64,000 nucleotides of DNA. Origin: Amoebidium appalachense. Lineage: Eukaryota; Protista; Ichthyosporea. The DNA is taken from contig CAVNZM010000011.1 in NCBI GenBank assembly GCA_963693365.1, positions 2,216,989 to 2,280,988 of the forward strand, read 5' to 3'. The notes under the pieces are model-generated. The model saw nothing but the letters and a program-made list of their open reading frames with translations. It searched no databases and was not told the origin of the DNA. Made by a program: the position numbers and the translations under genes. Positions 243-63,898 of this stretch are shown piece by piece; the stretch's first letter is position 1, and each line of letters opens with the position of its first letter.

Positions 243-7483
<7,241 letters not shown>

Positions 7484-11822: not shown

Positions 11823-17229
<5,407 letters not shown>

Positions 17230-22430: not shown

Positions 22431-27610
<5,180 letters not shown>

Positions 27611-29041: not shown

Positions 29042-30168
29042 CTATCCCACACGGATGATGCCGGCACTGACCAGTTTGTTGATCTTCTTCGCCACCGCAG
29101 GGTTCTTCAGGTGGCTGTGTGTGTGTGTGGTGTTGTGGGACGAGGGTGGCAGGGAGGGGGAGGGGGCGATGTGTTCAGTGTGAGAGAGAGTGGAATCCTA
29201 AGTCTGGGTACTACAGAAATCCCCCCCCCCCCCCCCCCCTGCCCTTTCGCCCTTTTTCCCTGTGGTGGCCACGCCATACCAAGGATGCAACATAGGCACA
29301 TCAGACACGGAGTTGCTTGCACCTGACTTGCTCACAGACATGCAGACAAACACATCACTCACCGACAGATACGTGCAGGCATACACAGCATACTCACACA
29401 CGCATGCGTGCACACACACACGTGCGGAAATGCACAAAAGGCTTGCACACGCACGAACACCTATCCACCACACCCACACACCCACATACCCGCAGACGCA
29501 CATCCACCCACCCACGCGCCAACGAACCCACCCACACACACACCATGGCGTCAAGCACCACACACACACACACACACACACACACGACTACACACACACA
29601 CACACACGTACTCTCTGACTGCTGCCGGGTCCTCTTGCATCTGTGACAGGATGGTCCGCATCACTGGGTCCGCCATGATCTCCTGCTCATACTCAGTCAG
29701 CTCACACCCAAGACACCCACACACGTACAAATGCATCCCCCCCCCCCTCCCCCCCCCTCCGCCAAACACACACACACAAACCAATACACGCAAAAAAAGC
29801 AGAAATGATAAAAAAAACAACTCACACATACGCACACGCACACACACATCCCCCCCCCCCCCCCCCCCCCCCCTCCCCCACACCGCAAACACCAAAAAAC
29901 AGACCAAACAAAACCAACCAACACACAAACCAACCAGCACCCACCTGCACCTCGGGGTCCTTCAGTGCCTCCTCAGCAATCTGATCCTTCGTCATACTGC
30001 TGTGTGCCCTCTGCATAGCCGCAAGTGTTCTCTGTATCCCCTCCTCAGCCTCCTTGTTTTCCGAATCCAACTTGAGTGCCTGTTCGTATGTCTCCAAGGC
30101 TTTACTGTAATCCTTGAGGAACAGGTGGCAGTTGGCCTTGCGAGAGTAGCCCTTGACTGTGTGTGTGT

Positions 30169-30199
<31 letters not shown>

Positions 30200-31299
30200 G
30201 GGGGGGGGGAGGGGAGGGGGAGGGGGCGAGGTATAAGTGCTAGAAGGGAAGCAACCGTATCACCAGGCTCAGCACGCCTGCATCACTATATGCAACCATG
30301 GACAAACACAACTACGATTCACTTCTTGTGTATTGGTTAAAAAAACCCATTCCCCATACCAAATTCGGCACTTTGTGTACCCCCCCCCCCCCCCCCCCCC
30401 CCGACCCCACACCCATTTCAATCTTGAGCATGCTACCTACCGAAGGTGGGGCACATGTCAATGCACTTCTCACAGTCCTTGAGGGCCGTGGGGAACTCTC
30501 CCAGCTTCATGTAGGCCGCAGCACGGTTGCTGTAAAGCACGTGATCCGAGGGGTTCCTGTGGCCACATGTGGTTAGAGAGAAGGGCAGGGGAAGACGGCA
30601 GGCAAACCTATTTTCTTGCAACATATGCACCACAATACGACAGAGGCGGTAGGAGAGGGAGGGTGAGGGGGAGGGAGGGAGGGGGGAAGGGATGGGAGGG
30701 AGGGAGGGAGGGAGAAACGAAAGAAGCATCATGGTAACACCGGAATATCACCATATGGACACGTGAAGAGAACAAATGACGTGGAGTGGAATGACCAAGA
30801 AGTATTATCCCTCTGCTATTCTGCCCCACACCGTGGATGCGCACACAAACCTGCACACCATTGATACCATTGATGCTACACACGCGTCTGCTCCAGTGCA
30901 TGCTAAACCCACATTTGTGCACGTGCAGACTACAACGTGCCACCCATTCACACCCACCCACCTCTTTATGGCCTCACTGTATGCCTTTACTGCCTCCGGG
31001 AAGTTGTTGTTCTTAAAGAACTCATTGCCCTTTGCCTTTTCTTCTGCTGCCTTCTCTGGGTCGATGTATGCATTAATGCGCTGCTCCTGAAGAAGTTTCT
31101 CGGCCTGCACACGACGGGGGAAAATAGATGGTCAGAAACACCAAAGATATACACCCCACTCCCCCTCTTTGACCACCAACACCAACACCACCACCATACA
31201 CCCACAGCACCGATAAAACCAATTCTTCCGTTTCTCGTCTTCTCCCACTATTATAGCCTTCGGCGCTACCTCAATCTTCACAGCCATTTGCATGCCGAC

Positions 31300-31351
<52 letters not shown>

Positions 31352-31665
31352 CTGACACCCTCCCTTGTATAAACCCACAAACTATCCTTGCCCCCGATAC
31401 CCAAACCAAAATTACTGTTCCCTTCCACCCCCCCCACCACCCCACCACCACCACCACGCCAAAAAGGAAAAATAAAAATCAATCTTGCGCCCACTAACCC
31501 CCTCCCCCCCCCCACACCCACCCACCCACCTTGATCTGCTTCTCCAGCACGTCCTTGACTCTGTGCTCGGTCAGACTCTTGTTGTACCACTGCACGGCCT
31601 TCTCGTAGTCGCCCTCCTTGAAGTAGCTGTTGCCCATGCGCGCATACGCCCTGTACGTGTGCGTG

Positions 31666-31715
<50 letters not shown>

Positions 31716-32824
31716 TGCACGGTGAAAGAGTGTGAGAACATTAGAAATGGGTTGTTGGCATGACCAGCGTTCATGTGCTCGTGTATCCTTTTTTGCGTGT
31801 GAAGTAAAACTCTAAAAGGAGGGGCAGATGGGCGGGCGGTTCCGAAGAAGGTGGTGGGGCAGGCAGAGAGGGGGTGGGGGTGGGGTGGGGGGAGGGGGGG
31901 AAGGGGGGGTAAAGTAGTAGAATCTTGTATGTGAGGGAGCCCATGTGTGCAATACGTGTGTAATCGTCCGAGGATGTATTCTCAACATGCTATGGTGCTG
32001 GTTGCTGCTTACAAAAGTGCATATCTACACGCACGTGTGCACATGCAGGATATGTCCGTTCTGTGTCTTCATGTCCCTCAGATCAAACCAGAAACAATGT
32101 GTGCCAACAGCCATACGTGGGCCTGTGTAACGCCATTTATCAGGGCATGCTGAAATGCAATTTAGAAAACACACACGCTTTCTTGCGTACATGCCCATAC
32201 ATACATAAACCTATCTTGCATGGACATGCACACCCGCTTATCACATGCACATGCACACACACACACACGCCACAAACACACACCCACCCACCCACCTGCA
32301 CACCCAGCTACGAACACCCACCTCCACCCCCCACCATCCCTACCACCCACCCACCCACCCACACCCACCTCCATCCGCACCCCCTCACCTCCCCACCCAC
32401 GAACACCCACACCCACCCACCCACGCCTGCACACACACACACACACCCGCCCACGCACACACGCACATACTTTGCCATGTTCTTGAAGTCTGCACGGAAC
32501 TCGTGTCCCAGGTCGATTGCTTTTTGGCACATCTCCCGGCACTTCTCCATGTCTCCCACCTCAAAGTGCACAGCTGCAAACCCAATCCACCGTCAGCTTT
32601 GTTTCTTGCTGCTAGGCATGTACCCCCCCCCCACCCCCAACCACCTCACACACATACACACTGATGCCCTTAGCAGGCATTTCCTTGTCGCCACCTACCA
32701 ACCGGAAAAAAGAAAAACCCAGAAACTATTAACCCCCCCATCCCCCCCTCCCCAAGCGAATCTTCCCCCCCCCCCCCCCCTCTTAAAGGAGGGATAAAAA
32801 TACGTAAACGTACTACTCCTATTG

Positions 32825-32874
<50 letters not shown>

Positions 32875-33217
32875 TACCTGCAGCGTTAGTGCAGTAGAGC
32901 ATGTTTGTAGGGTCCAACTCCATAGCTTTTGTATAGTGGGCCAGCGCAGTGTCAAACTGTTTTTTCTTGTATGCCTCGTTGCCTGCCTCTTTTTCCTTTT
33001 CCGCATCTTTTTTCTTCATTTCTTCCTCATCGAGTTCCATAGGGTCATCCTCTGGCTCCGGCTCCGAGGGTTTTGGTTTTTCCTTGGGGGGTTCCTTTGC
33101 GGGTTCTTTCTTCTGTGGCGGGGGGCTCGATGGGGGTGACTGTGTGCCGTTTGAGGCCTTGAGGTTGACACCCATGAGAGCTCCGAGAAGACCGAGCATG
33201 CGTGGGTCGCCCAGCAT

Positions 33218-33276
<59 letters not shown>

Positions 33277-34115
33277 AAGGTGTGAGTATCAGGAGCACAA
33301 GAAACATTGCAGTGTGCATGCATTGTGTGCGCGTGTGTGCGGGGGTGGGGGTTGTGGTAACTAAAATCCACATCCTCCCCCTCCCCTTCTTCCGGCTCCC
33401 TCCCTCTAAAAGAAGAAAGTAATTCTTACATGCATACAACACACACACACACAGAGAGAGAGAAAGCGAGAGAAAAAGAAGCGAGAGATAGAGAGCGAGA
33501 GTGAGTAAAAGAAGGGAGAAAGAGAGGGGAGAGGGAAAGGGAGAAAAGAAAGGGGAGCACGAGAGGGAGAGGGCACAGGCATTCAAGAAAGATGTGAACA
33601 CGCACTCCCAGCCAAAAACAAGAGAGGCAGACGGTAGACAAGTGTGAGATTGTCGAGTCACATACTCTCCCAGCTAAAATGGAAGATTTAGATATCTGTG
33701 AGATAGTCGAAGCACACAAGTGGATGAGAGAGCTATAATAGAATTATGTAAAATAGTCGGAGCACCTATTCTTCAACCACAAAGGAGAGATTAGGATATC
33801 CGTGAGATAGTTGGGGAAAGTATTTGTCAGCTAGTAAAGAGGAATTTAGATATCTGTATATTCGTGAGATATTTGGGGCACGTACTCTCCAAGCTTATTC
33901 GGATCCTGCTGCAGTGTCTTCACATTGGCCACAAACGTGGGGTCGGCCATGTGCCTGCTGAGCTCGGGGCTGGCTGCAATAGTCTGCCACACAGACCCAC
34001 TGCGCAGCGCCTGTGTGACCTTGGCCATGGGGTCGGAGGCCTCGGCCACTGTGGTGTGTGTGTGTGTGTGTGTGTGTGCGCGTGCGCGCGCGTATGTTGT
34101 GTTTAGGGTGGGGAG

Positions 34116-34147
<32 letters not shown>

Positions 34148-34322
34148 GGGGGGGGGGGAAAGGCGGAAAGGTAGGCTCAGTAAGTGGCGGTAGCAAGGAA
34201 GACGGTGTGTTGGAAGTTGAATAGTGGGCTGCGTGTTAGATGGGTGGGAAGGAGGGGGAGAGGAGTGAAAATGAGAGAGGAAGCAGGGAAGTGGTGAAAG
34301 ATTGAAGTGTCTGAGTGTCTGG

Positions 34323-34355
<33 letters not shown>

Positions 34356-34483
34356 GGGAGAGGGGGGGGGGGGGGGGGGGGGGGGCAGAGGGGCAAGAAG
34401 CTGGCACTGTGTGTGTGTGTGTGTGGAGGGGGGAGGGCGGAGGAGGACCGTCCTTAAACATCTTCAAAGACTCCTTATTTATA

Positions 34484-34523
<40 letters not shown>

Positions 34524-36552
34524 AAAAAGAATGTCCGACAAAACCTTCAGCCACAACCAGATTATCTTCCTTCCTGTTTTCGATATGGCACACAATCACA
34601 ACTATCTCCGCTACCATCCCCCCCCTCCCCTCCCCCCCCCCTCCCCACCTTTGCCCAAGTCCTCTGCTAGCTATACCTACCACTTCCCCATCCTCCTCCT
34701 CAATGCAATAGGTCTCTCCCCCGCTTCCCTCGATCCAACCTCTTATCCAGACCATCAAACATCCTACCCGCAAACAACTCACTACCCCCCCCCCCCCCCC
34801 CCTTTCCCCTCGTCCCCCATCCCCTCTCTCTACCCCAACACACACACAACCACCCATGACACTCGGCTCCACTCACATCCACCCCTCCTCCATCCATCAC
34901 CACTTGCGGGTATGCAGCCCTCCACCCACTACCCCCCCCCCCCCCCCCCCCCCCAAACCCCCCACACACACACACACACATACTCTTCTGCTGGGCCACA
35001 TCCTCAAGGGCCTTTGTGAGGGTGGGGTCATTGGGGCACATCTTCAGGCCGTCACTGTACGTGTCCATGGCCTCATCCAGACGGCCCAAAAACGCAAGTG
35101 CAGTGCCCTTGCGGGAGTAGCCCTGTATGCGGGTGAGGGGGGGTGAGTGCCTGTTTGACATGCCATTGTCGAAAAAGCCGTGCTGGGAAGACACGGGGGA
35201 AGGGGGGAGGGTGGGGGACCAAATTCTGCAAAGCAGGTCTGAGGGAACGAGATGGAGAGGGCAGGCCGCAGGGGGAGGGGAGGGGGGGGGGAGAGGCAGG
35301 CAGGCTGCAGGGGGGGGGGGGGGGGGTTGAGCTAGAACATATTTGCTGGAATAATGGACTGCGGGGAAAGGGGCGAGGGGGGTGGAGTGGCACCCCGGGG
35401 CTGAGAGATGGGGCCCAAGTGCATGCCCAGCGAGGAGGCAGCACAAGATACATTGGGGTTCTGCTCGTCGGAGCGCAAGGTAGGGGAAAGGGGCGGGGCA
35501 GGGCCCGGGGGACGGGGGGAGGGGGGGGGGGGGGGGGGGGGGGGCGGGGGGGGAAGGGCGATAAAAGCGGAGATAGCAGGAGACAGTCCGGTACAACGTG
35601 TGTATCCCAAACGTTCTCTGGCAATCTCAGCCAAGAAACGAGGTCTTACACCACAGGGAAAAGGGAGAGGAAGGGGGAGGCGGAGCCAGGGCGGCAAGGG
35701 GGAGAAGGAGGGGGAGGGAGGGGGTGTGTGAGTGTGAGGGGGGGCCGGGGGAGGGGGGAGGTGGGGGGGAGATGGAAGAGCAAACATGTTAGAACAGCCA
35801 CCCACCCAGAAGTGTGCATGCATGCACCCAGAACACACTCACGTACCTTGGCCCAGTCGTTCTTGAGCTTAATAGTCTTCTCTGCATCCTTAAGGGCCAG
35901 ATCATACTGGCCACTGGCTGCATAGGCACCGGACCTGCAAAAAGATGGTTTCAGATCATACACAAAACCGAAAAAAGCGAGAGACAGGCGCGCAATACAC
36001 ATGGAAGCAAAGGCATAACGTGACAGGCACTGCACACAGATTTTGCAGGAGATGTTGTACAAACCTGACTTGAATCACAGATCCACAGAAACTCTATGCC
36101 TCTAAAACAAACCCACCACCCACCTGTTGCTGTAGAGCACATGGTTTGTCGGGGCCAGGGCTATGGCCTGTGTGAATAGATCAATAGCCTTCGGGTAGTC
36201 TTTGGATGTGAAGGCGGCGTTACCTTGGGCCTTGAGTGCTTCTGCCTGCATCCGGCAAAACCCACGTGTTAGAATGCAAAAAAATACAACGAACGAATGC
36301 AGGCATTCTATGTTCTCAGCCATTTATAGAAAAACAAAGTTGCAAGAAGCTTTTGCTGCACATAACACAGAACAGACGGTAGACACCTGCATATGAACGT
36401 TGCATATTCAGAGTTCGCAGTTGCCGTACGTTACACAGTTGCCATACTCAGCAGTACTTTTGCAACACAACAAACGAACAACACGAGGACACAAAAAAAA
36501 AAAAAACAGCACAGTCACTCCACCAACTTTGCGTTCCTACCTGGTCAGCCAT
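29042..36552 (-). CDS. STIP1: Hsp70/Hsp90 organizing protein STI1/HOP; 13 exons: 36552-36541, 36245-36124, 35934-35847, 35122-34984, 34048-33886, 33218-32878, 32573-32471, 31650-31530, 31104-30962, 30556-30441, 30156-29945, 29682-29612, 29114-29042
   Basis: TPR1 ([12 protein letters not shown]...HVLYSNRSGAY...WAKGYSRKG), DP1, TPR2A ([14 protein letters not shown]), TPR2B ([18 protein letters not shown]...[11 protein letters not shown]) and DP2 ([24 protein letters not shown]...KLVSAGII). All junctions are GT-AG and in phase. Confidence 0.96.
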
Positions 36553-38444: not shown

Positions 38445-50110
<11,666 letters not shown>

Positions 50111-51479
50111 AGCCCACCACCATGCATATGCACCAAGTAATGGGCTCCACGTGTGACCTGCCACCAATAGGAGCACCAGGGCTCCTTTATCGGATAATTT
50201 GCATAGATAGAACCCCCAATCCCGCCCCAACCCCCCAACCCCCCCCTTTTTATGGCCCGGCCACCGGTTGGCTGGGCCGAGCAGCCAGCGGGTCTGGCGT
50301 GTCACGTGACTAGCAAGTGAATTCGGCCCCGGCTAGTGCGGCCAGGGGCTATGTTTTTGTTGTCTGCACGTGTCGTGTTTGTAGAGCCCCCCCCCCCCTC
50401 CCCTCCCTCCCAAAGGGCCCCCAGGGCCTCTCGTATATCCTTGTGGCATGTTGACACACGGTATACATTCAGATGCGTCGCACGTTCTTCGATTACGACC
50501 CTCCCCCCCCTCCGCCCTCTCCCTTCAAGATCTTTCGACCGCGGGTGGCCGGAAAGCACTTGCAATTGGCATAACTACACGTGGACTATGCTTGAGATGA
50601 TAGACCCATGCACGGTCGATTGGTGCATGCGCATGCCCATCTGTGCAGTTACGCATTTTTGCATGCATCATGCGCGTGCGCACAACACAGCTGGGCACTG
50701 TGTGCTGCTGGCTTTGACCTGTGCGGTACCGTGCTCTGTTTGCATGTCCGGGGCCCACAGCCAACCTTGCGCCGTTCCTCATGACACGACAACACAAGGT
50801 GCATGCAAGCACACAACTTGCCAAAGGGATCATTTCTTGTGCATATCTTGTGAATGATGCATGCAGCATCGATCCTGGACGTGTTCACGATAGGCAGGCA
50901 CTTGAAGCCAAGCGCGACGGATGGGTGCACGCAGCAACCAGAGAGAGCACACACAACAGCATCAGCCTAGGCCTACACGTGCTTGCGCCTGCTCGTTTAC
51001 TCTTGACCCTGTTTGCGTTATCATGTGTTTTTACAACTGAAGGTGTGACGACCAAGCTCTTATGCAAGAGTCATGGATGAATCATGTGTTCGTGACGTAC
51101 ATTTGATCATTTATCAGTGAAGTTCGGCGTCATTGAGGCACCCTTAGTGAACACACCACTTTGCAACAAAACACGAGGCACACCACGGCACGTGTTTTTT
51201 TACCTTGCAGCACTATATAAACGCAAATTTCTGCAACTCTAGCCCCGGGGCTAGGGCACACGCACACAGCCACGGGCAGACGAACTCGCTACTGTAGACC
51301 GAATGCACGTGTGCACACATACACGCAAGGACAGAACTGATTTCTGCAGTTAGCTCAGCATACACACGAACACACACGCACACACACGCAGAAACACGCA
51401 CACGCCCTGGCCAAGGCCCTTGGAACACGCGCACAGCTAGGCCATATGGGTCAGACAGAGCGCTAGGCGCTGAGGCAGC

Positions 51480-52959
51480 ATGGCGGGGTCGCTGCTGGAT
51501 GCCCTGAGAGACCCCATCCTGGTGCTGGCTTTGCAGGTGGGTGCAGTGCAGGTGCGCACATGGGCACGCACAGAGGCACGGGCACATGCAAATGCACAGG
51601 CCAGGCACTTCACAGGCAAAGGCACGGGCATGCACACGCACAGCCGTGCACAGATAAAGGCACACATACGCACGTACGGCCACACATAAACACAGGCTCA
51701 GGCAGAGGCGCAGGCGCAGGCACACCCACAGGCAGGACCACAGGCACACACACATACACGTGTACGACCACGGGCACGTGCACGAGTCCCAAGCCCCGGC
51801 GGGAGGAGACAGGCACAGGCAAAGGCACAGGCACAGGCACAGGTGCACACACCAGGCACACAGGGGTTTTCACACGCACAGACACATCACAGGCAGACAT
51901 CAGGCTTTTAAGCGCACAGGCGCAGGCACAAACACAGGCACAGGCACATACAAGGGGGGCCACACTCACAGGCAAGGGCACGGGCATACAGGAGCGTATA
52001 CAGGGCATATACAGGCACACACATGGGCAGAGGCACACACACAGGCACAGAAAAAGACACAGGCAGGGAGAGGCACGGTCAGGAGGAACAGGCACAGGCA
52101 CACACGGGGCACGTGCAAGCACAAACCCTTCATAAATTACACATTCTTTTTACCCCCCCCCCCCCCCCCCCCCCCCACTTCTCCCCCCTCGTCCCCCCTG
52201 TTGGCTTGACTGGGGCCACCCTTCTGTTCTTTGCATGGTGTAACACTCCCCCTCCCCCCCCCCCCCCCCCCCCCCCCAACACACACACACACACACACAC
52301 CGCCCTTTCCTTGGTTCCACAGGGCACGGTGTCTGAGCTGAACACGGCTGCACGCAAGTGGCTGGGTGTTGGGGATGGCACAGGCCAGGCGCTTGGAACA
52401 CTGTGTTCCAACCCAGACGAACTCCTCGATTCAGCAAGTGGGGCCGGGGCGGTCTGTATTGGGAAATGGCGCACGGTTGGGGGAAGATGTGTGCAGGCAG
52501 AGACACACGTGCGGTTGTTGAGGGGGCACTCGGAGACACAGGTGGTGGTGCACATTGCAGGCCATGCACGTGCAGCAGAAAAGGAGACGGCCTGGGGCCC
52601 CGTGTTCCAGAGCACGAGAGAGGGCGTGTTGGTGGTTGCGGCAACCGGGGGTGTGGTGGCTGCGAATGAGGCGGCGTGTCAGTTGTTTGGGAGGGCGGAT
52701 TTGGCGGGGACGGATGTGAGAGATTTGTTCCCTGGGGCAAGCAGAGATGCACGGTGGGCACAGATCAGGGCACTTATGCAACAGGAGAGGAGCAGGGGGA
52801 GTGGGGCGGCACACAGACAGGAGAGACGGGTGAGTGTGTCTCGCTGTATATTTCTTTTCGCCTCCTCGCTCTCTCTTTCTCACATACACACACACACACA
52901 CTCTCTCTCTCCCTCCCCGCCCCTCTCTCTCTTTCTCCCCCCCCCCCCCCTCTCCCTCC

Positions 52960-52995
<36 letters not shown>

Positions 52996-53832
52996 CCTCG
53001 CTCGCTCCCTCCCCTCTCCCCCCGTCCTTCCCTCCCTCCCTCACTCCTTCCCTCCCTCTCTCCCGCGCTCCCTTTATATCGCTTTCCCCCTCCCCCTCCT
53101 TCTCACTCTCTCTCTCTTTCTCTCTCCCCTTCCCCCCCCCCCCCCCCCCCCCCCCTATCTGTCTATCTATCTATGTATCTATCTATCTCTCCGTCTATCT
53201 ATCTCTCCACGAAACCCCCCACCCTGTCTCCTTTTCCCTTTTCCGGCCTTTTGCTTCCACCAGGGAAAATCTTTCTTTCTCCTCTTCCCCCCCCCACATG
53301 TCGGTAGCTGCCTCACCCGCCCTTCCTTGCCTCCCTTCTCTCCCCTTTCCCCCTCTCGCTTCCTCTCCTCTCCCCCCCCCCCCCCCCCCCCCCGTTTCCT
53401 CTCTCCTGCTCCTTCCTTCCATGCCTCCCCCCCCCCCCCCCCCTCCACCCTTCCCTCTCTCCCCGGCCCTCCCCCCTCCCCCCCCCCCCCCCCCCGTTTC
53501 TCTCGTCGTTTCTCTTTTGTGTGTATGTGTGTGTGTGGTGTGTGCGTACGTGTGAGTGCATGCCTATTAGGATGCCGTGTGCGCGTACATGGGCTTGTAT
53601 GTGTTTCTTGTGTCGTGCTTTTTATTCTTTTCTGTTGTAACTGTGTGATTGTGTGTGGTTTTTTTTCTAACCCGCTTTTATCTCTAAATGGATAGTTGCT
53701 ACCGTGTATCCTCTATGTCCATGCCTTACGTGCGCTCGCCTGCCTGCCTGCCTCCCCTCCAGTTTATAGATAGTGCCCTTACGGCTGCACTGTAGTGGGT
53801 ATGCATGTAGTTCAATCACTTACATCCCCCCG

Positions 53833-53867
<35 letters not shown>

Positions 53868-53990
53868 TTCAAGTGTCTTCTGCCTGCAAGCTTAAGTTGT
53901 TTGATTTTGGATTTCCCACTTTTGTGACGTTTTGTTGTTGCTCTTTGTTATCTCCTCCATATTTTCAACCCTCTAACGCATACATCTCCC

Positions 53991-54042
<52 letters not shown>

Positions 54043-56103
54043 CCTTCTTCTCGGGCTGCCACAGATGCAAGGCCTACGTGGTGATGGTACTGTGGGTGGG
54101 CTGTCTGTGCTCGTGTCCTCCCTGGCCCCCAGTGACGGGGTGGAGGGGTGCCTGTACCTGCTGCACGTGCAGGACACCAGCCAATCAGACATCAGCAGCG
54201 CAAAACAGGCACAGCTATTGGCTAGCAACCGCCTTTTATGGGCAATGGGGGTGGCTGTGATTGGTGTAGACCCTCAGGGCATTGTCGTTTCAGCCAATCC
54301 GGCGGCAGCGTCTATGCTCGGGCATGTGGGCCCGGCAGACTTGGTGGGAGTCGGAGTGGGGGCAATTTTGTCAGATGAGTGTGTGACCCAGTGTTTGCCC
54401 CCCCTCGTACGGACCGAGACGGATAGGTGGACGGCGAATGGGAGATATGTAGCACGGAGGAGGGACGGGGGCCGATTGCCTGTGGATGTTTGTGTGTCAC
54501 AGGCAGAGGGGGAGGGGGAGGTGATGTATGCCGTGACTTTATGCGACGCCACGTTGGCGACACACACGGAGAAGGAAGTGGAGTCTGAAAGACAGCAAAA
54601 GGTGTTGTTGCAATATCAAAAGGAGGCTCTATTGGCGAGCAGTATGGATGCGGTGTTGCTGATTACAGACAAGGGGGTGATTGAGGAATACAACAGGGCA
54701 GCAGAGAGGATGTTTGGTTATTCGGCTAGTGAGGTGGTGGGGCAGAACGTGAGCCTGCTGATGCCTCAGGAGTTGGGTAACCTCCACCAGGGGTACATCG
54801 ATAGGCACGTTACAAACCAGACTACAGGCGCTGCTAGGCCCGTGGGACGCAAGAGAAAGGTGTGTGTACGTTTGTGTGGGGATGGGGTTTGGTGGGCGGG
54901 TGGGTGGGTGGGTGGGTGTGTGTGTGTGTGGGTGTGTGGGTGTGGGTGTGGGTGTGTGTGTGTGTGGAGGGTAAGGAGGAGAGGGGGGAGGGGGGGGGGG
55001 GGGGGGAAGGAATTTGATTTTGGCTGCGCTGTGGTTTTTTGCTGGCAGGGGAGGAGAGGGAGGGGGGAGGGGGTCATTTCTTTTTTGTGGGGAGTTAGCC
55101 GTTTTTTTTTTGTTTTTGTTTTTTTTTGTTTTTTTTTTTGCCCCCCTGTGTGAGGTGTCATTAGTTTCTGCCTGTCCGCCGCATGCTGATCGATCTTCCC
55201 AGCTTGTTGGTGTTCGGCGGGATGGCAGCCGGCTGCCGATTGTGTTGAATGTTGCCGACGTGCAGGTGCTAGGCCAGGGACCGAGGTCCTTTGTCAGCTG
55301 CATAAGGGACGTCACGGACTATGATAAGGTGCATGGGCGTGGGGGGGATACGGAGGTGGAGATAGGGGGAAAGGAGGGGGGGAAGGGGAGGGGAGGAGAA
55401 GGGGGGAAGGGGGGAAGGGTTTGGGGGTGGGGGTATATTTGTGAGGGCGTGGGGGGATGGAAGGGAGACGAGGAAGGGGGTGGGGATGTGTGGGCGAAGT
55501 GGAGTGGAGAATGTAGTGTATGTGTGTGTGTTTGGGGGGGGGGGGGGAAGGGGTCATATGGGTGACGAGAGCGTGGGGATGGGTTTGTGGTTGTGTGGAC
55601 GATTGGTGTACTCATGCGATTGTCTGCCTGTGTGGAAACATTGGGTGGGAAGCATGCAATGGCTATGTGTTTGGGGAGATTAGGGAAGGACAAGGAAGGA
55701 ATTTAAGGAGAATGGCTGCACTAGATAATGCACTCTAGGGTATAAAGAAGGGAAGGAGAGATGTATGGGGAGTGTGTGGTTAGTGTTTCGATCTCAATTA
55801 TGCTCGGGGATGGGGCAGATTCAAGCTCACACCACACACACATACGGACGTGCGCGCCGGCTTACGGATATATACACATATCCTCACAAACACTCACACA
55901 AGCACCTCAGCCCATCATCCTCTTTTTGTGGCATTTTGTAGTTTGTCCTTTGGTGTTTCATCTATATATCCAACCCTCTAACGCATACATCCCCCCCCCC
56001 CCCCCCCCCCCCCCCCTCCCCCCCCCCCTCCAAAAAAACAAACAAAAAAAACCCCTCAAATGCATACCCCTCCCCCCTCCTTACATCTTCCCATCCTCGT
56101 TAA

Positions 56104-56152
<49 letters not shown>

Positions 56153-56300
56153 ACACACACGCACGCACACACCACCACCACCACCACCACCACCACCACC
56201 ACCACCACCACCACCACCATACACACTCGTTGTCCCCCTATCCCACACAGACACACACACACACAAACACACACCACTCTCACCCATCCACCCACCCATC

Positions 56301-56347
<47 letters not shown>

Positions 56348-57494
56348 ATCCCCCCCCCCCCCCCCCCCCCCCCCGGGCCCTCCTCTTCTCTAAACACACA
56401 CATGCACCACCACCTCCCCACATGCATACACACATAGGTGCTTGCCGACCTGGAGTGCAAGACACAGGAGATTGAGGCGATACTGCACAGCATTGGGGAT
56501 GGGCTGGTGGTGGTGGATGAGGGGGGCACCATTATGAGCTTCAACGGGGCTGCATCACGCATGTTTGGATACACACAGGAGGAGGCTGTGGGTACGTGCT
56601 TGTGGGTGGGTGGGTGGGTGGGTGGGTGGGTGGGTGGGTGGGTGTGGGTGTGTGTGTGGAGGTGTGTGTGGGGGGGGGTGCGTGTGTGTATGTGGGCGAG
56701 CGCGCACGCGTGTGTGTTTATGTGCGTATGCCCGTGAGGGTGTAGGTCTAACCATCCCTGCCTCCCTCCCCCCCCAAACACACACACACACAAAAAAAAT
56801 GTCCCCCTCCCCCTCCCCCCCCCCCCCCCCCCTCCCACCACCCCCCCCCCCCCCCCTTCCCCTCCCCACCCCCCCCCCCCCCCCCCCGTCTTCCCCTCTA
56901 CGTCTCCCCACCCCCCTCCCCTCTTCCCCTTTCCCCCTTTCGCCAACCCAACAATTTACCCTGCAGGCATGGGAGTAGAGCAGCTTGTTCCAGAGCACAT
57001 GGCGGAGCAGCACACGACCTTCATGCAGCGCTTTATGGACAGTGGGGATAAGGCCATGGGCCGGTTAATGGTTCGGGGCAGGCAGGTGAAGGCACGTAGG
57101 CGTGATGGCAGCACCTTTCCCTGTGTGATTACTCTCAGTGAGGTACAGGGCGGTCTGAGATCGGCTGTGGCTGCGGGTGCAGAACCAAGGAGACTGTTTA
57201 CTGCAAGTGTGAGGGATGTGAGTGATAAGGTGAGGGTTTGGTGGTGTGAAGGGGAATTGGGGGGGGGGGGGGGGGGGGGGTAGGCGAAGGTGGGTTTGGA
57301 AACCGGGGGGGAGGGAGGGGGGGGAGGGGGAGGGGGGGGGGGGGAGAAGGGTCGGTGGGTGTGGGGGGGGTGAAGGCAAGGAGGAGGAAGGAAATGGGTT
57401 GGGAGAGGGAAAGTACATGGGTGTGATGTGTATACATGTATCAACTTTGATGTTGGAGGAAGGCTTGGATGAAGTGGGGGAGGAGGTGGTGGGT

Positions 57495-57537
<43 letters not shown>

Positions 57538-58151
57538 GGAGACCAGAGGTATCATTTGGTTTTGTCGTATGTGTTGTGCCATTATGCAATTGGGCTCAAG
57601 AGAGTGAGAGTTGCCTCCTGTTGTGTGAGCAGTGACATGGTGGTGGAATCCAGACGGGTGGTGGACCTCTGTCGGTGTGTAGATGTGTGTATTAGAAAGC
57701 CTCCACATTGCGCACATGTGCTCGAATGTTTTGCTCCAAGGTTGTGCTCCAACCTTGTTTAGCACCCAATGTGCAATTGTGCATGTGCAATCACAAGCCT
57801 GATACTGACCGCCTGTGCCACCTAGATGGCCGCCGACTCAGCACTTCAAGCAGAGAAACAACTCGGTGCCGAGCGCACTGCCCGCATGGAGGCTATATTT
57901 AGCAGCGCCCTGGACGCTATTGTGATGATCGACGAACAGGGGGTAGTCTTAGAGTTCAACAATGCAGCCGTCAATTTGTTTGGCTGGCGGGCAGATGAGG
58001 TGGTGGGGCAACCGGTGGCTATGCTCATGCCGGATGATGTGGGGAGAATACACCAGGCGTATATTGACAGGTATCTGAGGAGTGGGGAGAAGGCTAAGGG
58101 TAGAGCTGTCGGCAAGAAGCGAAAGGTGCGTGTCTGTATGGGTGGGTGGGT

Positions 58152-58187
<36 letters not shown>

Positions 58188-59426
58188 CGGGCAGGAAGGG
58201 TGAGGGTGTGGTGTGGGATGGGGATGGGTGGGTGGGTGTGTGGTGTGTGGGTGTGGGTGTCTGGGTGTGTGTGGGTGGGTGGGTGTGTATGGGTGTAATT
58301 TGTGGGTGTGTGTGCTGTGGTGTTGGTTGTCGGGGAGGAGAGGGGGAAGATGGGTGGAGCTGGTTTGTGAATTCTCATATGGTTGTTTGGATGCAGCTCA
58401 TGGGGCGGTGCCGTGACGGCCGACTGTTCCCTATGACACTCTCTCTCAGCGAGGTCGTGCCAGAGGGGGGTGGGGAGAGTCCCCGCCACTTTGTGGGTGT
58501 GATTCGGGACACGAGCGAAGCAGAACGGCTAGTGAGTGAACTCGACGCAAAGACACTGCGCCTGGAGGCTATTTTGAACAGTGTTGCTGAAGCGGTGGTG
58601 GTTTTGAATGGCACCGGCACGATTTTGAGCCTAAACGCTAGCGCCGTGAGAATATTTGGGTTTAGTTTGGAAGAGGTGGAGGGGAGAGACGTGGCGATAC
58701 TTATGAGCCCCGAACTGCAGAACGTCTGGCGTACGTTTCTGGATCGCTATGTTCCAACTAGCCCACGTGGCACACCCGGATATGTGTTGGCTAGGGGTCA
58801 GGTGGTGCAGGGGAGAAGGAGGGATGGTAGTTTCTTCCCTGCAATATACACACTGAGCGAAGCGATTGGTGTTCTGGGTGGTTCGGCCCCCTTGGATCCC
58901 GCGGCTACGAGACAGTTTGTTATGTCGGTGCGAGATTTGACGGAGAAATTGAGGGTGGAAGCGGCGTTGGAGAGCGAGAGGGTGTCGAGTTTGGAGAAAA
59001 CAAGGAGAATGGCGGCAATATTTTCGTGTGCAAACGATGCGGTGATCATGATGGATCAGAGGGGAAAGATACTCGAGTTTAACAGGTATGGGTGTTGGAT
59101 TATTGTGTGCTTAGTGGGTTTATTTGCATATGGATTTTTGTACTTGTGGCGGTGCATTCCTAGGGATTTTCTTGTTGTTCTTTCGGATTAGTCTGATCTT
59201 ATTAGTCCGCATAATTGTGTGCAATGTATATACGATGCAGGCACAAGCACGCATACACGCACCATACACGGAACAAAAGTGCGCACACAAGCACGCACAT
59301 GCCTACACGAGCACACACAGACACAGATGCGCGCACTTTTCTCATACCTGATCACTGGCCCATAACCATCCGCACACTAACATTTAAGCCACGAACACAT
59401 CACACACACACACACACACACCCACC

Positions 59427-59477
<51 letters not shown>

Positions 59478-60492
59478 CTCGCCTCCCCCGCCCACACAAT
59501 TGCACACCCACACACTCGCACACACCTGCACACCTACAGGGCTGCCGAGAAGACCTTTGGGTGGCGTGCCGATGAGATTCTAGGCCAGGACGTGTCCCGG
59601 CTCATGCCGGAGCACATCGGCCGCATGCACCAGAGCTATGTGGACCGTTATCTGAAGTCAGGCGAGATGGCCTCCGCACGGGCTGTGGGCCGCAACAGAA
59701 AGGTAGCCCCCCCTCCCTCCCCCTCCCCCCCCCCCCCCCACCGGGGCCATTTTTCTCGAGATGTGTGTCCTGTTCCCACCTCCCCCCCCCCCCCCCTTCT
59801 TCTTAGTTTACTGTGCTTACCCCCCCCCCCCCCCCCCCTCCCCCTCCCCTAGGCGGGTGCATTTTGCTAGGGGTACGTGTGGGTGTATCGTGTCACCGCA
59901 ACTCCATTAACTAGTGTTACCGCAACTCCATTAACTTGTATGCCGTGCATATGTGAGCTGCTTAGTGTTTGAAATGGTGTATGCCAGTTTTCTTCTATTC
60001 CCTCCTTTCCCCCTCCCCCCCAAATGCATCATGTGCATGGAACATATACTTACTGATTTGGACCCTTCCCTCCCTTTCTCCCCAAATCACTCCACGGTCC
60101 TCCTCCCTATCCCACAATGTTTCATTGACCTGCCCTCACACAACTCCTCTTACCCCCCCCCCCCAACACTTACACACCCCAACCCTTTCCGCCCCCCAGC
60201 TCCACGGGCAACACCAAGACGGGCACATCTTTCCCATCACACTCTCACTGAGTGAGGTTGAGGGTGCACCGGACGGGGATCGGCAGTTTGTGGGTGTGAT
60301 CAGAGACCTGACCGAGACAGAGAGACTAGCAGCGGACCTTCAAGCCAAGACACAGCAGGCGGAGGCGATACTCAACAGTGTTGCAGATGCAATAGTGGCG
60401 CTGTCTTCAGATGCAAAGATAGTTGCTTTCAATAGGACCGCTACGGTGCTGTTTGGATGCACGGTCGAGGAGGCACTGGGTATTTAAACAGT

Positions 60493-60533
<41 letters not shown>

Positions 60534-62349
60534 AGAAAAAGGAAAGAAAAGAAGAAAGCGTGTGTGGGTGGGTGGGTGAGTTTTGGGTGGGTGGGTGGGT
60601 GAGGGGGAGGGGAGGGGGGGGGGGGGGGGGGGAAAGAGGGGGTGGAGGGGGAAGGGGGGGGGGGGGGGAGGGGAAGAAGCAGAAAAGGGGAAAGCGGTGG
60701 AAAGAAATGAAGGAATGGATTATTGTGGTTATAAGGGGAAAGAAAAAGAAAATAGGGTGGATAGGACTGTGAAGAATGACGGTTTACACCAACCACCGCT
60801 TCTCCCACTTTAGCATCTGGGCGCTGACCAGCCGAGAGCCACATTTCTTACATGCGATTCACCAATCAAGAGACTCAATCAAATGTCGACATTCGACAGA
60901 GCCTTTCGCGCCCTTTTTAGGGCCACATGGCGTCATGGAATTTGTGCACAAAATGACGTGACCAATGTGGCTCGCCGCCCAGAGACTATGGAAGTAGCGG
61001 TGGTTGCTTTAACTTCTCTGTGGGACTGCACCTTGTTGTCCTCAATGGTCCTTGTACGTGGCGCTGTGCCGCAGGCTAATTCCCCTTGCCCTTCCCCCCC
61101 CCCTCCCCCCCCCCCTCCACCTCCACACTCCCCTCCCCCTTAATCCCCCCTACAACAGGGCGACCCCTAGGGGATCTTCTGGCCGGAAACAGCACCCAGC
61201 TCCTGTCCGACATCATTCAGTGGCTGGGTGGCAGCACAGGCCCCGATCCCACCCCAAGACCGGCCATGGGTCGAAGGAAGAATGGGGGTGTGTTTCCTTT
61301 GACGGTGGCTATGGGAGATAGCCAACAGATTGGTCTCAGCACAAGAGTATACACGGTGTGCCTAAGAGACCAGACAGAGAAGGTAGGAATTGTGAAGAGT
61401 GGGTGTGGTGTGTTTGGAGGTGTGGGAGGCTTGTGAGTGTGTTGTGTGGTGGTGGTGGTGGTGGTGCATGTGTGTGTTTTGGGGGCGGAGGGGAAGGGGG
61501 GAGGGGGGGGGAGGGGCATGGATGTATGTTTTTTTTGGGGGGGGTAGGGGGAGGGGGGGGGGGGGAGGGGGGGGGGAGGAGGCCGGGGGAGGGAGGGGTG
61601 GAATGGGTGCATGGTGTTTTGTACAGGGAAGTGGGTACGTGTGCTTTCTCCCGGTTTGTGCCTGCTTGAAGGGCGCCACAGGATTAAAGCAGGGGAGAAA
61701 ATTTGCAGGGCACATAATTAAGATGGGTGATTGTGGTGGCTATGCGGGTGGTGATAGGCGAGTTACTTTCTCCAAATGGAAGAAAACAAAAACAAAAATA
61801 ACAAAAAAATTAATAGTAAAAATAAAAGCAATTTTCAAAGAAAACAAAATGGTAAAAAACGAGAGCAAAAAAAGTAAACGAATAAAACAACTTTTGGCAC
61901 TGACGTCTGCCCATTCTGTTTTAGGCCGAGGCCGAGGCAGCGCTGCACAGTGAGCGCAAGGTTTCATTGGACAAGAGTAACCACATGGAGGCTATTTTTA
62001 GCAGCGCATTGGACGGCATAATTGTCATTGACGAGAGGGGATTGGTCCGAAACTTCAACACCGCCGCTGAGCGTCTATTTGGCTGGAGGGCAGATGAGGT
62101 GGTGGGGCAACCGGTGGCCATGCTGATGCCAGAACATATTGGGAGGGTGCACCAGACATACATCGATAGGTATCTGAGGAGTGGGGAGAAGGCCCATGGC
62201 AGGGCCGTGGGGAGAAACAGAAAGGTATGTGGTTGGGTGTGGGGATTGAAGGGAGGATGGAGGAGGGTAGGGTGGTTGGGGGGAGGGGGGGGGGGGGGGG
62301 GGGGGGGGGAGCTAATGGCTGACGGGGAGGGAAGGGTGGCTAGAGGGGC

Positions 62350-62400
<51 letters not shown>

Positions 62401-62628
62401 GAGTTGGAGGGAGGGAAGGAGTCGGAGAGAATACTGACCTCCACACGAACACTACAACCACCACACACACAAATACACACACTTCTTGAACATGCACACG
62501 GACACGCGCACACACACACACACACACACACGCATGTATACCATACAGTTGCACATACACACACAAACATATACATTTACATATACACATACCCACACAC
62601 ATACACCCACGCACCCACGCGCGCGCAT

Positions 62629-62673
<45 letters not shown>

Positions 62674-63094
62674 CACACACACTCACACATTTACCATCCA
62701 GCTTCAAGGGCGGCGCAAGGACGGCACATACTTCAGCATGACTCTGTCTCTCAGTGAGGTTGCAGGTGCCTCCACACGCTGTTTTGTCGGTTTCATCCGT
62801 GACCTGAGTGAGCTAGAGAGACTTATGGAAGAGTTGGAACATAAGAGCAGTCATATCGAGGCCATCTTTAACAGTACGGTGGATGCTATGGTTACCTGCG
62901 ACCAGCACAGCAGGATCAGTGCATTCAACACCGCAGCAGAGAGGATGTTTGGGTGGCCACGGCAGGAGGCACTGGGGCAGAACATAGCCGTGCTGATGGA
63001 GGAGAAGTTTGGGCAGCTGCACCAGCAGTATATGGACCAGTACATCGGGAAGGGTAAGAGAGGGGGGGGATGGAGAGGGAGAGAGAGAGAGAGA

Positions 63095-63154
<60 letters not shown>

Positions 63155-63237
63155 AGGGGAGGGGGGGGGGAAGGGAAAGGGAAAGGGAGAGTGGGGGGAG
63201 GGGGAGGAGAGAGAGTGTGTGGGTGTGTGTATGTGTT

Positions 63238-63285
<48 letters not shown>

Positions 63286-63306
63286 TTTTGTGTGTGTGTG
63301 TGTGTT

Positions 63307-63351
<45 letters not shown>

Positions 63352-63898
63352 GTTCGGTTGGTGCGGGTTGGTTGGGGGGTGGGGGGGTGTCTGCGAGGGT
63401 GTGGGTGGGTGGGTGGGTGGAAGTTGGTGGTTGGGTGGATGTCAGAGAGAAGGTGTGGTGGGGAGGGGAAGGTAGGGGTAAGGGGGTGGGGGGTGGGGCA
63501 GAGGGTCTGGGTTAAGGGGAGTACAATTTATAGGCACACTGGCTGACATCTATCAGCACATGCACAAGTAAAACATACTAGTGTTAAATGTACGTGACTA
63601 ATGCAGAAAATGTCAGCTCAACGTATGTGTTTACATGTTTGCGCAAGATAAGGGAAACGGGGGGCAAGGGCTCTATGCGTGTGTGCTAATAAGGTTATGC
63701 AGGGGACACTGCTATTGGGCAGATTCTTGGCCGGGGCCGGCAGCTTGTGGGTCGGCGACGTGACGGGGAGCTGTTCCCCATCCTGGTGACCCTCAGCGAG
63801 GTACGGCACAACCTACCGGGCAAGGAGAGAGAGTTCACGGCATCCATGAGGGATCTGAGTGAGCTCAAGAGAATAGCAACAGACCTGCAGACGGAGAG
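51480..63898 (+). CDS. Multi-PAS sensor protein (at least 11 tandem PAS/PAC domains, 6 of FixL heme type), 3'-partial; 14 exons: 51480-51536, 52323-52829, 54065-54859, 55203-55328, 56438-56591, 56967-57229, 57826-58125, 58397-59085, 59540-59702, 60200-60479, 61159-61382, 61925-62224, 62702-63053, 63703-63898
   Basis: Repeated EAIxxSxxDAIVxIDxxGxIxxFNxAAERxFGxxxxEVVGQxVxxLMP ... GRRRDGxxFPxxLSLSEV ... FVGxIRDLTE units separated by short coiled-coil linkers. All 13 junctions are GT-AG and in phase. The last exon ends at a donor, so the gene continues past the window. Confidence 0.92.
51590..52105 (+). repeat. Degenerate (ACAGGC)n hexamer repeat region in PAS-gene intron 1
   Basis: Many ACAGGC/GCAGGC units, with a pure stretch near 51809-51843. 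Confidence 0.8.

What the first reader, a model, noticed from the sequence alone, without database searches (positions are those of the whole stretch)
51480..63898. Eukaryotic protein with at least 11 tandem PAS domains, six retaining the FixL heme-ligating His: candidate multi-heme O2/NO/CO sensor
Seen: the spliced product has at least 11 consecutive PAS domains. PAS4, 5, 6, 8, 10 and 11 carry L(M/V)xxxxxxxHxx(Y/F)(I/M/V)xx motifs: LMPQELGNLHQGYIDRH (His codon 54785), LVPEHMAEQHTTFMQRF (57011), LMPDDVGRIHQAYIDRY (58051), LMPEHIGRMHQSYVDRY (59628), LMPEHIGRVHQTYIDRY (62150) and LMEEKFGQLHQQYMDQY (63020). Each is followed by an FG-loop Arg segment such as AVGRNRKL or QILGRGRQLVGRRRDG. Known: rhizobial FixL has LMPxPxxxxHDxYIxRY...IIGIGRxVxGxRxDG, where the His is the proximal heme-b ligand and the Arg stabilises bound O2. 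FixL has a single heme PAS, and FixL-like PAS proteins also occur in green algae. Inference: a chain of six or more heme sites on one helically linked rod could give cooperative or graded gas sensing. The bacterial-type domains with 13 spliceosomal introns suggest an old, domesticated and amplified acquisition. The output domain lies beyond the window.
Basis: partly seen in the sequence, partly recalled or inferred. Interest (0 to 1): 0.85.

Follow-up and report, generated by a model that had tools for sequence, protein, structure and literature searches.

The report
Six-heme oxygen-sensor rod in animal relative
A spliced gene in what is likely a single-celled relative of animals encodes a chain of ten clear and one probable PAS sensor domains, six of which keep the histidine and arginine that bacterial FixL uses to hold heme and oxygen, so it is likely a multi-heme oxygen sensor, and similar untested arrays occur in several other protists.

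Summary
Real gene: 14 exons, 13 GT-AG introns, 1468 open codons, running off the window; 7 of 13 joints are displayed in spliced contigs. Ten PAS domains score, PAS1 only aligns. Six keep FixL's proximal His and distal Arg. New anatomy: the array is a tandemly copied A-B pair (shared intron, linkers alternating 27/34 residues, a shared 3-residue FG-loop insert), with different distal pockets in A and B. The host is likely an ichthyosporean. Best reading: a soluble multi-heme O2 sensor whose output lies in at most about 506 unseen codons; histidine kinase is the leading guess. It is not unique: 63 of the top 150 hits carry six or more His-PAS domains, among them 13-PAS membrane proteins (Bodo, Diplonema, Colponema clusters), a diatom cyclase and a thraustochytrid kinase. 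Ten paper searches found no description of such arrays. This scan noted a nine-PAS array on other DNA before (e1-7189736). Heme binding, cooperativity and bacterial origin are untested or unresolved. New variant of a known kind; interest 0.58.

The parts
51216..51221 (+). TATA-like box 264 nt before the ATG
   Evidence: sequence; function inferred
51480..63898 (+). Gene, 14 exons in the window, 1468 aa, open at the 3' end: 51480-51536, 52323-52829, 54065-54859, 55203-55328, 56438-56591, 56967-57229, 57826-58125, 58397-59085, 59540-59702, 60200-60479, 61159-61382, 61925-62224, 62702-63053, 63703-63898
   Evidence: spliced contigs; in-frame stop two codons before the ATG
51480..52589 (+). PAS1, degenerate, no His (probable)
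   Evidence: alignment only
52587..54184 (+). PAS2, degenerate A-type, no His; carries the A-type intron
54212..54562 (+). PAS3, degenerate, no His
54608..55325 (+). PAS4, A-type, His429 (codon 54785) plus distal Arg; Pro at FixL Ile215 position
56459..57828 (+). PAS5, B-type, His562 (codon 57011) plus distal Arg; Leu at position 215
57874..58522 (+). PAS6, A-type, His710 (codon 58051) plus distal Arg; Ala at position 215
58550..58951 (+). PAS7, B-type, His replaced by Trp and distal Arg by Gln; intact PAS fold between two continuous helices
58997..60319 (+). PAS8, A-type, His994 (codon 59628) plus distal Arg; Ala at position 215
60347..61382 (+). PAS9, B-type, His replaced by Leu, shortened F-helix/FG loop
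61973..62815 (+). PAS10, A-type, His1262 (codon 62150) plus distal Arg; Ala at position 215
62843..63866 (+). PAS11, B-type, His1393 (codon 63020) plus distal Arg; Ile at position 215, Gln at Arg206 position
63867..63898 (+). Start of another linker in the same register, ending at a GT donor; the transcript goes on beyond the window

Best explanation
The gene encodes a protein with no hydrophobic segment, built from a tandemly copied pair of FixL-type PAS domains joined by predicted helices, and it likely works as a multi-heme O2 sensor: six domains would each bind heme b through the conserved His, bound O2 would be held by the distal Arg, and the summed twist along a likely dimeric coiled-coil rod would switch an unseen C-terminal output, most likely a histidine kinase. 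Shown: gene, splicing, fold, residues, repeat structure. Inferred: heme binding (about 0.85), O2 as the working ligand rather than NO, CO or redox state (about 0.7 given heme), dimer, and output (histidine kinase 0.40, cyclase or phosphodiesterase 0.20, more PAS or no enzyme 0.20, Ser/Thr kinase 0.15, other 0.05). A-type pockets (Ala or Pro at FixL Ile215) and B-type pockets (Leu or Ile) would differ in affinity, giving a graded response over a wider O2 range. PAS1-3, 7 and 9 would act as heme-free spacers.
For: His and distal Arg are 2 of only 19 invariant columns of 125 among six domains that are 32-71% identical; His-less PAS7 and PAS9 each keep 14 of the 19. Across 1129 collected PAS domains the two residues go together (701 both, 268 His only, 19 Arg only, 141 neither; rows are related, so the p-value is inflated). 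The best solved matches are FixL and DosP heme domains. Xing et al. [quoted passage not shown] PMC10765370 (passages) shows that the Ile215-equivalent residue tunes O2 binding. Linkers alternate 27 and 34 residues; 27 is the PAS-PAS spacing of FixL-like kinase P0161, which aligns without gaps to FixL, and 27/34/41 recur in the kinases P0142 and P0145 and the diatom cyclase P0133. AlphaFold2 gives both linkers of exon 8 as continuous helices of 23 and 30 residues (pLDDT 89.8). The six His domains are closer on average to His-PAS of kinase/cyclase-type proteins (34.5%, 177 domains) than to TmcB-type arrays (29.7%, 419 domains). Capsaspora has 11 histidine kinases (PMC6324907, passages).
Against: No heme or gas binding was measured. 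The FG loop is 3 residues longer than in FixL (His-to-Arg 23; 616 of 695 other domains have 20, 8 have 23), and Ala at position 215 is rare elsewhere (4%), so the pocket may behave differently. The output was not seen. Of 64 other proteins with six or more His-PAS, only 1 scored with the kinase probe and 1 with the cyclase probe; 32 were TmcB-type and 30 matched no probe (many of these may be fragments). No intact His-bearing domain was folded, since each is split by an intron.
Confidence: 0.6

Rival explanations
1. An output-less multi-heme chain that buffers or scavenges gas (an O2 store or NO/CO sink) or signals only by binding a partner.
For: PAS-only arrays exist: P0120 (1657 aa, 10 His-PAS, ends at its last PAS), and the TmcB-type proteins end in 13 His-PAS with no enzyme. 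The remaining <=506 codons could hold three more PAS domains, and the linker after PAS11 is in the register of the earlier ones.
Against: Linkers keep a strict 7-residue step, as in kinase and cyclase rods. Five of eleven domains lack the His, which is wasteful for a store. FixL-type domains bind O2 weakly (recalled, not from a call).
Confidence: 0.2
2. A heme-PAS sensor whose working signal is NO, CO, heme availability or iron redox state rather than O2.
For: FixL domains also bind CO and NO (solved complexes listed). The A-type pocket departs from FixL at position 215 and in loop length, and changing this residue abolished the stable oxy complex in S. meliloti FixL (PMC10765370, passages).
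Against: The distal Arg, used for O2 and not needed for CO or NO (recalled), is invariant in all six His domains.
Confidence: 0.15
3. The domains bind no heme. The His is inherited from recent duplications and the array is a spacer or binds other small ligands.
For: Xing et al. report that 40% of FixL-cluster domains lack the His (PMC10468136, passages); five domains here have lost it. PAS6 and PAS10 are still 71% identical.
Against: A and B types are 32-48% identical and exons 7 and 12 differ at 61 of 100 codons, yet His and Arg are invariant in six domains.
Confidence: 0.05

Closest known systems
Rhizobial FixL heme-PAS (B. japonicum, PDB 1DP6/1DRM/8JS5; S. meliloti 1D06) and E. coli DosP
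   Same: PAS fold, F-alpha His, distal Arg, Arg206-equivalent in 5 of 6 domains, 27-residue PAS-PAS helical linker.
   Different: One heme-PAS per chain in FixL (recalled) against six here; FG loop 3 residues longer; Ala/Pro at Ile215 in A-type domains; eukaryotic, 13 introns; output unseen.
Eukaryotic multi-PAS histidine kinases (oomycete, cryptophyte, fungal group V; PMC6324907 and PMC10468136, passages)
   Same: Long N-terminal PAS array in a eukaryote; more than 14 PAS per kinase are reported for Phytophthora.
   Different: The passages seen do not describe them as heme arrays ('heme' occurs 0 times in PMC6324907). Kinase domain untested here.
TmcB-type membrane proteins with 13 His-PAS domains (clusters holding Bodo saltans CUG33156.1, Diplonema papillatum KAJ9436222.1, Colponema vietnamica; database records only)
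   Same: Tandem FixL-type PAS with His kept; 32 of the top 150 hits have 12-13.
   Different: They have a multi-pass N-terminus, TPR_TmcB in 3 of the scanned full-length members, the array at the C-terminus and 23-residue linkers; the window protein has none of these.
Diatom cyclase P0133 (cluster with Conticribra weissflogii KAL7466838.1) and thraustochytrid hybrid kinase P0157 (cluster with Mucochytrium quahogii)
   Same: Soluble, seven His-PAS in a row ahead of an enzyme; each array groups by itself in the tree, like the window's.
   Different: No A-B alternation; 25-27% identity over the array for P0133; other lineages; untested.
Chlamydomonas FXL proteins (Murthy et al. 2012; recalled, not found in the library)
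   Same: Eukaryotic FixL-type PAS reported to bind heme and O2 through the His (recalled).
   Different: Recalled as membrane proteins tested as single domains; not compared here.

Membership tests
FixL/DosP-type heme-PAS domain | PAS fold | tested here: met
   Pfam and TIGR00229; AlphaFold2 model of exon 8 matches FixL 8JS5 at E 6e-13
FixL/DosP-type heme-PAS domain | Proximal His on the F-alpha helix (BjFixL His200) | tested here: met
   Aligned to FixL; present in PAS4, 5, 6, 8, 10, 11; absent in PAS1, 2, 3, 7, 9
FixL/DosP-type heme-PAS domain | Distal Arg at the end of the FG loop (BjFixL Arg220; numbering partly recalled) | tested here: met
   Aligned to FixL; Arg in 6 of 6 His domains
FixL/DosP-type heme-PAS domain | FixL-like distal pocket (Ile215, His-to-Arg spacing 20) | tested here: inconclusive
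   Spacing is 23 in all six; Ile/Leu in B-type, Ala/Pro in A-type
FixL/DosP-type heme-PAS domain | Binds heme b and O2 reversibly | not testable with these tools
   needs spectroscopy
FixL protein (NF041777) | Whole-length match, single heme-PAS plus histidine kinase | tested here: not met
   Exon pieces score 54-86 bits against a cut-off of 850 (pieces, not the whole protein); six His-PAS in 1468+ aa against a 485-position model
Eukaryotic multi-PAS hybrid histidine kinase | HisKA, HATPase_c and receiver after the array | not testable with these tools
   Lies beyond the window; at most about 506 codons in the contig, enough to hold them
TmcB-type 13-PAS membrane protein | Multi-pass N-terminus with TPR_TmcB before the array | tested here: not met
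   No hydrophobic segment in 1468 aa; in-frame stop just before Met1, inside the transcribed stretch
TmcB-type 13-PAS membrane protein | 23-residue PAS-PAS spacing | tested here: not met
   27/34 here
PAS kinase (PASK) | C-terminal Ser/Thr kinase domain | not testable with these tools
   Beyond the window; PMC10468136 places Capsaspora PASK-PAS in the FixL cluster, so it was considered

The most novel reading that the evidence does not exclude
A unicellular relative of animals has an analogue O2 meter: a rod of alternating high- and low-affinity heme-PAS units that sums six or more binding events per chain into one output. It is one of several separate protist inventions of poly-heme PAS arrays (kinetoplastid/diplonemid 13-heme receptors, diatom cyclases, thraustochytrid kinases), an overlooked eukaryote-wide mode of O2 sensing that needs no HIF.
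Probability: 0.3. Interest if true: 0.85.

Novelty: new variant of a known kind. Interest (0 to 1): 0.58.

Why it matters
Characterised heme-PAS sensors carry one heme domain per chain (recalled). A chain with six sites in two pocket classes offers a direct test of how several ligand-bound PAS domains add up along one helical rod, and single domains are small enough to express. If the host is an ichthyosporean, it gives a concrete candidate for how single-celled relatives of animals measure oxygen. The search also exposed a large set of uncharacterised protist proteins with 7-13 His-PAS domains, one of them annotated only as a putative chemotaxis protein, which may matter more than this one gene.

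Tried and rejected
No assembly is held for this window, so paralogues and the 3' exons could not be read. Searches for the protein itself or a close relative found none: exon 8 against 402-2000 aa proteins (88 hits, best-scoring 32-34% identity), exon 13 against 206-2000 aa proteins (9 hits), exon 12 against the 50% representatives (top 150 at most 45% identity), exon 12 in metagenome contigs (65 loci, at most 52% over long matches; the scan covered 20 of 64 parts; loci not examined further). These are weak negatives; proteins over 2000 aa were outside. No RNA holder was listed on record; X10 and X14 were guesses that the splice joints then bore out. The ESM Atlas gave only generic PAS clusters. 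A two-copy complex job on PAS7 with its linkers gave no verdict (score 0.10). Origin by transfer from bacteria: FastTree on 507 of 1129 domains put PAS4-11 in one group with two stray His-less domains (0.92); IQ-TREE quick on 117 rows set the window's 8 domains apart from 64 eukaryote-array domains (SH-aLRT 90; the careful search did not finish); on 84 of those rows (4 long branches dropped, arrays thinned to four domains each) window and eukaryote arrays fell on one side (support 31). The 45 comparison rows were picked for likeness to the window and are mostly unnamed. Verdict: unresolved. Cooperativity was dropped as a main claim for lack of any evidence. Membership in the TmcB-type family was rejected. 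Paper searches that found no description of multi-heme PAS arrays: (its genus term was an untested guess). The library lacks most subscription journals. The one supplementary file of PMC10468136 held as text had none of five organism or accession terms; its data tables S2/S3 were not seen and may list these proteins.
Full report
Observation. The region holds a eukaryotic gene on the + strand with microsatellite-rich introns. An in-frame stop lies two codons before the ATG and a TATA-like box at 51216. The stop is inside the stretch covered by the spliced contig, so there is no longer N-terminus. A hydropathy scan finds no membrane segment. Pfam hits PAS families in 10 of 13 exon pieces and TIGR00229 passes its cut-off in 6 of 6. 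Ten domains score with a profile made from the six His domains; PAS1 only aligns.

Expression and continuity. Contigs of runs X10 and X14 skip 7 of the 13 introns in the displayed rows, and the DNA runs X1 and X3 show none of these joints. Contig lengths add up exactly to exons 1-7 (tail 738 nt) and exons 7-12 (1520 nt). A third contig covers the end of an A-type exon and exon 13 and goes on for 1713 nt. If it includes exon 14, about 1518 nt or at most 506 codons remain beyond the window, unless that contig is itself cut short. Two of the breaks sit at a 31-nt exact repeat shared by exons 7 and 12, so one transcript is well supported but not shown end to end. The letters beyond the window were not obtained, so the output domain stays open.

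Host. A 77-aa piece of the upstream TCP1-alpha gene has as best hit a EukProt protein labelled Ihof at 81% identity; the other 119 hits listed, mostly animals and fungi, reach at most 76%. I read the label as the ichthyosporean Ichthyophonus hoferi (recalled). The host is therefore likely another ichthyosporean; this rests on one exon and no tree. Neighbouring genes are housekeeping or unrelated. A review notes ichthyosporean sequences from low-oxygen habitats (PMC11286789, passages).

Heme-site anatomy. The best solved relatives are FixL and DosP heme domains by sequence and by fold (on an AlphaFold2 model of exon 8, pLDDT 89.8). PAS4, 5, 6, 8, 10 and 11 keep the His200 and Arg220 equivalents, and five of them the Arg206 equivalent; PAS7 has Trp and Gln, PAS9 has Leu and a shortened loop. 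His and Arg are among 19 invariant columns of 125 in six domains that are 32-71% identical, which argues for selection. Two features depart from FixL. All six have 23 residues from His to Arg where 616 of 695 other domains have 20 and 8 have 23. The Ile215 position is Ala or Pro in PAS4, 6, 8, 10 but Leu or Ile in PAS5 and 11; this residue affects O2 binding in S. meliloti FixL (PMC10765370, passages).

How the array was built. Even-numbered (A) and odd-numbered (B) domains form separate groups in two trees (supports 0.94 and 0.87; 85 and 93). PAS2, 4, 6, 8 and 10 all carry a phase-0 intron at the same point after the distal Arg; PAS5 and PAS9 share a phase-1 intron. Linkers alternate 27 (A to B) and 34 (B to A) residues, predicted as continuous helices of 23 and 30 residues. 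So an A-B pair that already carried an intron was copied in tandem inside a eukaryotic genome. The 7-residue step keeps helical phase, the pattern known from dimeric bacterial sensor kinases (recalled); 27 is the spacing in FixL-like kinase P0161, which aligns gap-free to FixL.

Relatives. No close homologue was found. The layout, however, recurs. Of the top 150 representatives, 63 have six or more His-PAS domains, 38 have ten or more, 32 have 12-13, and 47 have six or more with both His and Arg (counting domains that fill at least 75% of profile columns: 1129 of 1330). The ranking sums scores over domains and so favours arrays; these are not frequencies. Named members are eukaryotic: Bodo saltans, Diplonema papillatum and Colponema vietnamica clusters, of about 3400-3600 aa at full length, with many hydrophobic segments, TPR_TmcB and 13 His-PAS at the C-terminus; a diatom cyclase with seven (P0133) and a thraustochytrid hybrid kinase with seven (P0157); and PAS-only P0120 with ten. 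Of 64 proteins with six or more His-PAS, 32 matched the TmcB probe, 1 the kinase probe, 1 the cyclase probe and 30 none. TmcB-type arrays use 23-residue spacing; the window shares the 27/34/41 series with kinases and the cyclase. Whether the founding domain came from bacteria or from an old eukaryotic stock is unresolved, though Xing et al. argue for repeated transfers in general (PMC10468136, section 10 read).

Mechanism. Most likely (0.6) a soluble rod with six heme-b sites in two affinity classes and heme-free spacers, passing a summed conformational signal through in-phase helices to a C-terminal output, with a hybrid histidine kinase the leading guess (0.4). Shown: gene, splicing, fold, residues, repeat structure. 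Inferred: heme, ligand, dimer, output. Rivals: an output-less buffer or adaptor (0.2), a sensor of NO, CO or redox state (0.15), no heme (0.05). Nothing here speaks for cooperativity.

Literature. [quoted passage not shown] PMC6324907 (passages) lists multi-PAS kinases in oomycetes, cryptophytes and fungi and 11 kinases in Capsaspora, with no mention of heme. PMC11244166 (passages) only lists a TmcB-related protein and two PAS proteins among Chlamydomonas ciliary proteins. The Chlamydomonas FXL heme-binding work is recalled, not read. Ten searches (listings only, apart from the papers named) found no account of poly-heme PAS arrays; the library is incomplete.

Verdict. It is a new variant of the FixL-type heme-PAS sensor, not FixL and not a TmcB-type protein. 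It is one of several separately amplified arrays in protists, widespread in databases but, as far as my searches reach, uncharacterised.

Noticed in passing
proteins P0089-P0125, P0244: A family of about 3400-3600 aa multi-pass proteins with TPR_TmcB and 13 C-terminal PAS domains that all keep the FixL His (31 proteins with 13 of 13); clusters include Bodo saltans, Diplonema papillatum and Colponema vietnamica. The Bodo record is annotated as a putative methyl-accepting chemotaxis protein. Possibly a 13-heme membrane receptor; no paper found.
   Followed up: partly
proteins P0133, P0157, P0196, P0120, P0173: Other poly-His-PAS arrays: diatom adenylate/guanylate cyclase (7), thraustochytrid hybrid kinase (7), an LtrA-like membrane domain followed by 8, and proteins with PAS only (10 and 7).
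   Followed up: partly
protein P0141: A 4799-aa hybrid histidine kinase with 32 PAS domains; it is not among the proteins with four or more His-PAS.
   Followed up: no
window 4620-4886 (-), 15150-15368 (+), 25240-25611 (+), 29873-36323 (-), 41376-49400 (+): Neighbouring intron-rich genes: ARID-domain protein, Cox11, PP2C phosphatase, a TPR protein resembling STI1/HOP (name recalled) and TCP1-alpha. No functional link seen.
   Followed up: partly
window about 700, 14817-15779 (two copies), 48088-48386: A dispersed element of about 100 nt next to poly-C runs recurs in non-coding DNA (seen as repeated pseudo-translations); intron bins at 51625, 53750, 55450 and 60975 draw very high depth in DNA runs, pointing to high-copy repeats.
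   Followed up: no
window 5054-5856: Tandem repeat of a 30-nt unit, about 15 copies, open in several frames.
   Followed up: no
window 55571-55963 and 61609-61952: Low-depth intron-covering contigs in run X10 (12.7 and 7.9 against 88-167 for spliced contigs): pre-mRNA, retention or DNA carry-over.
   Followed up: no
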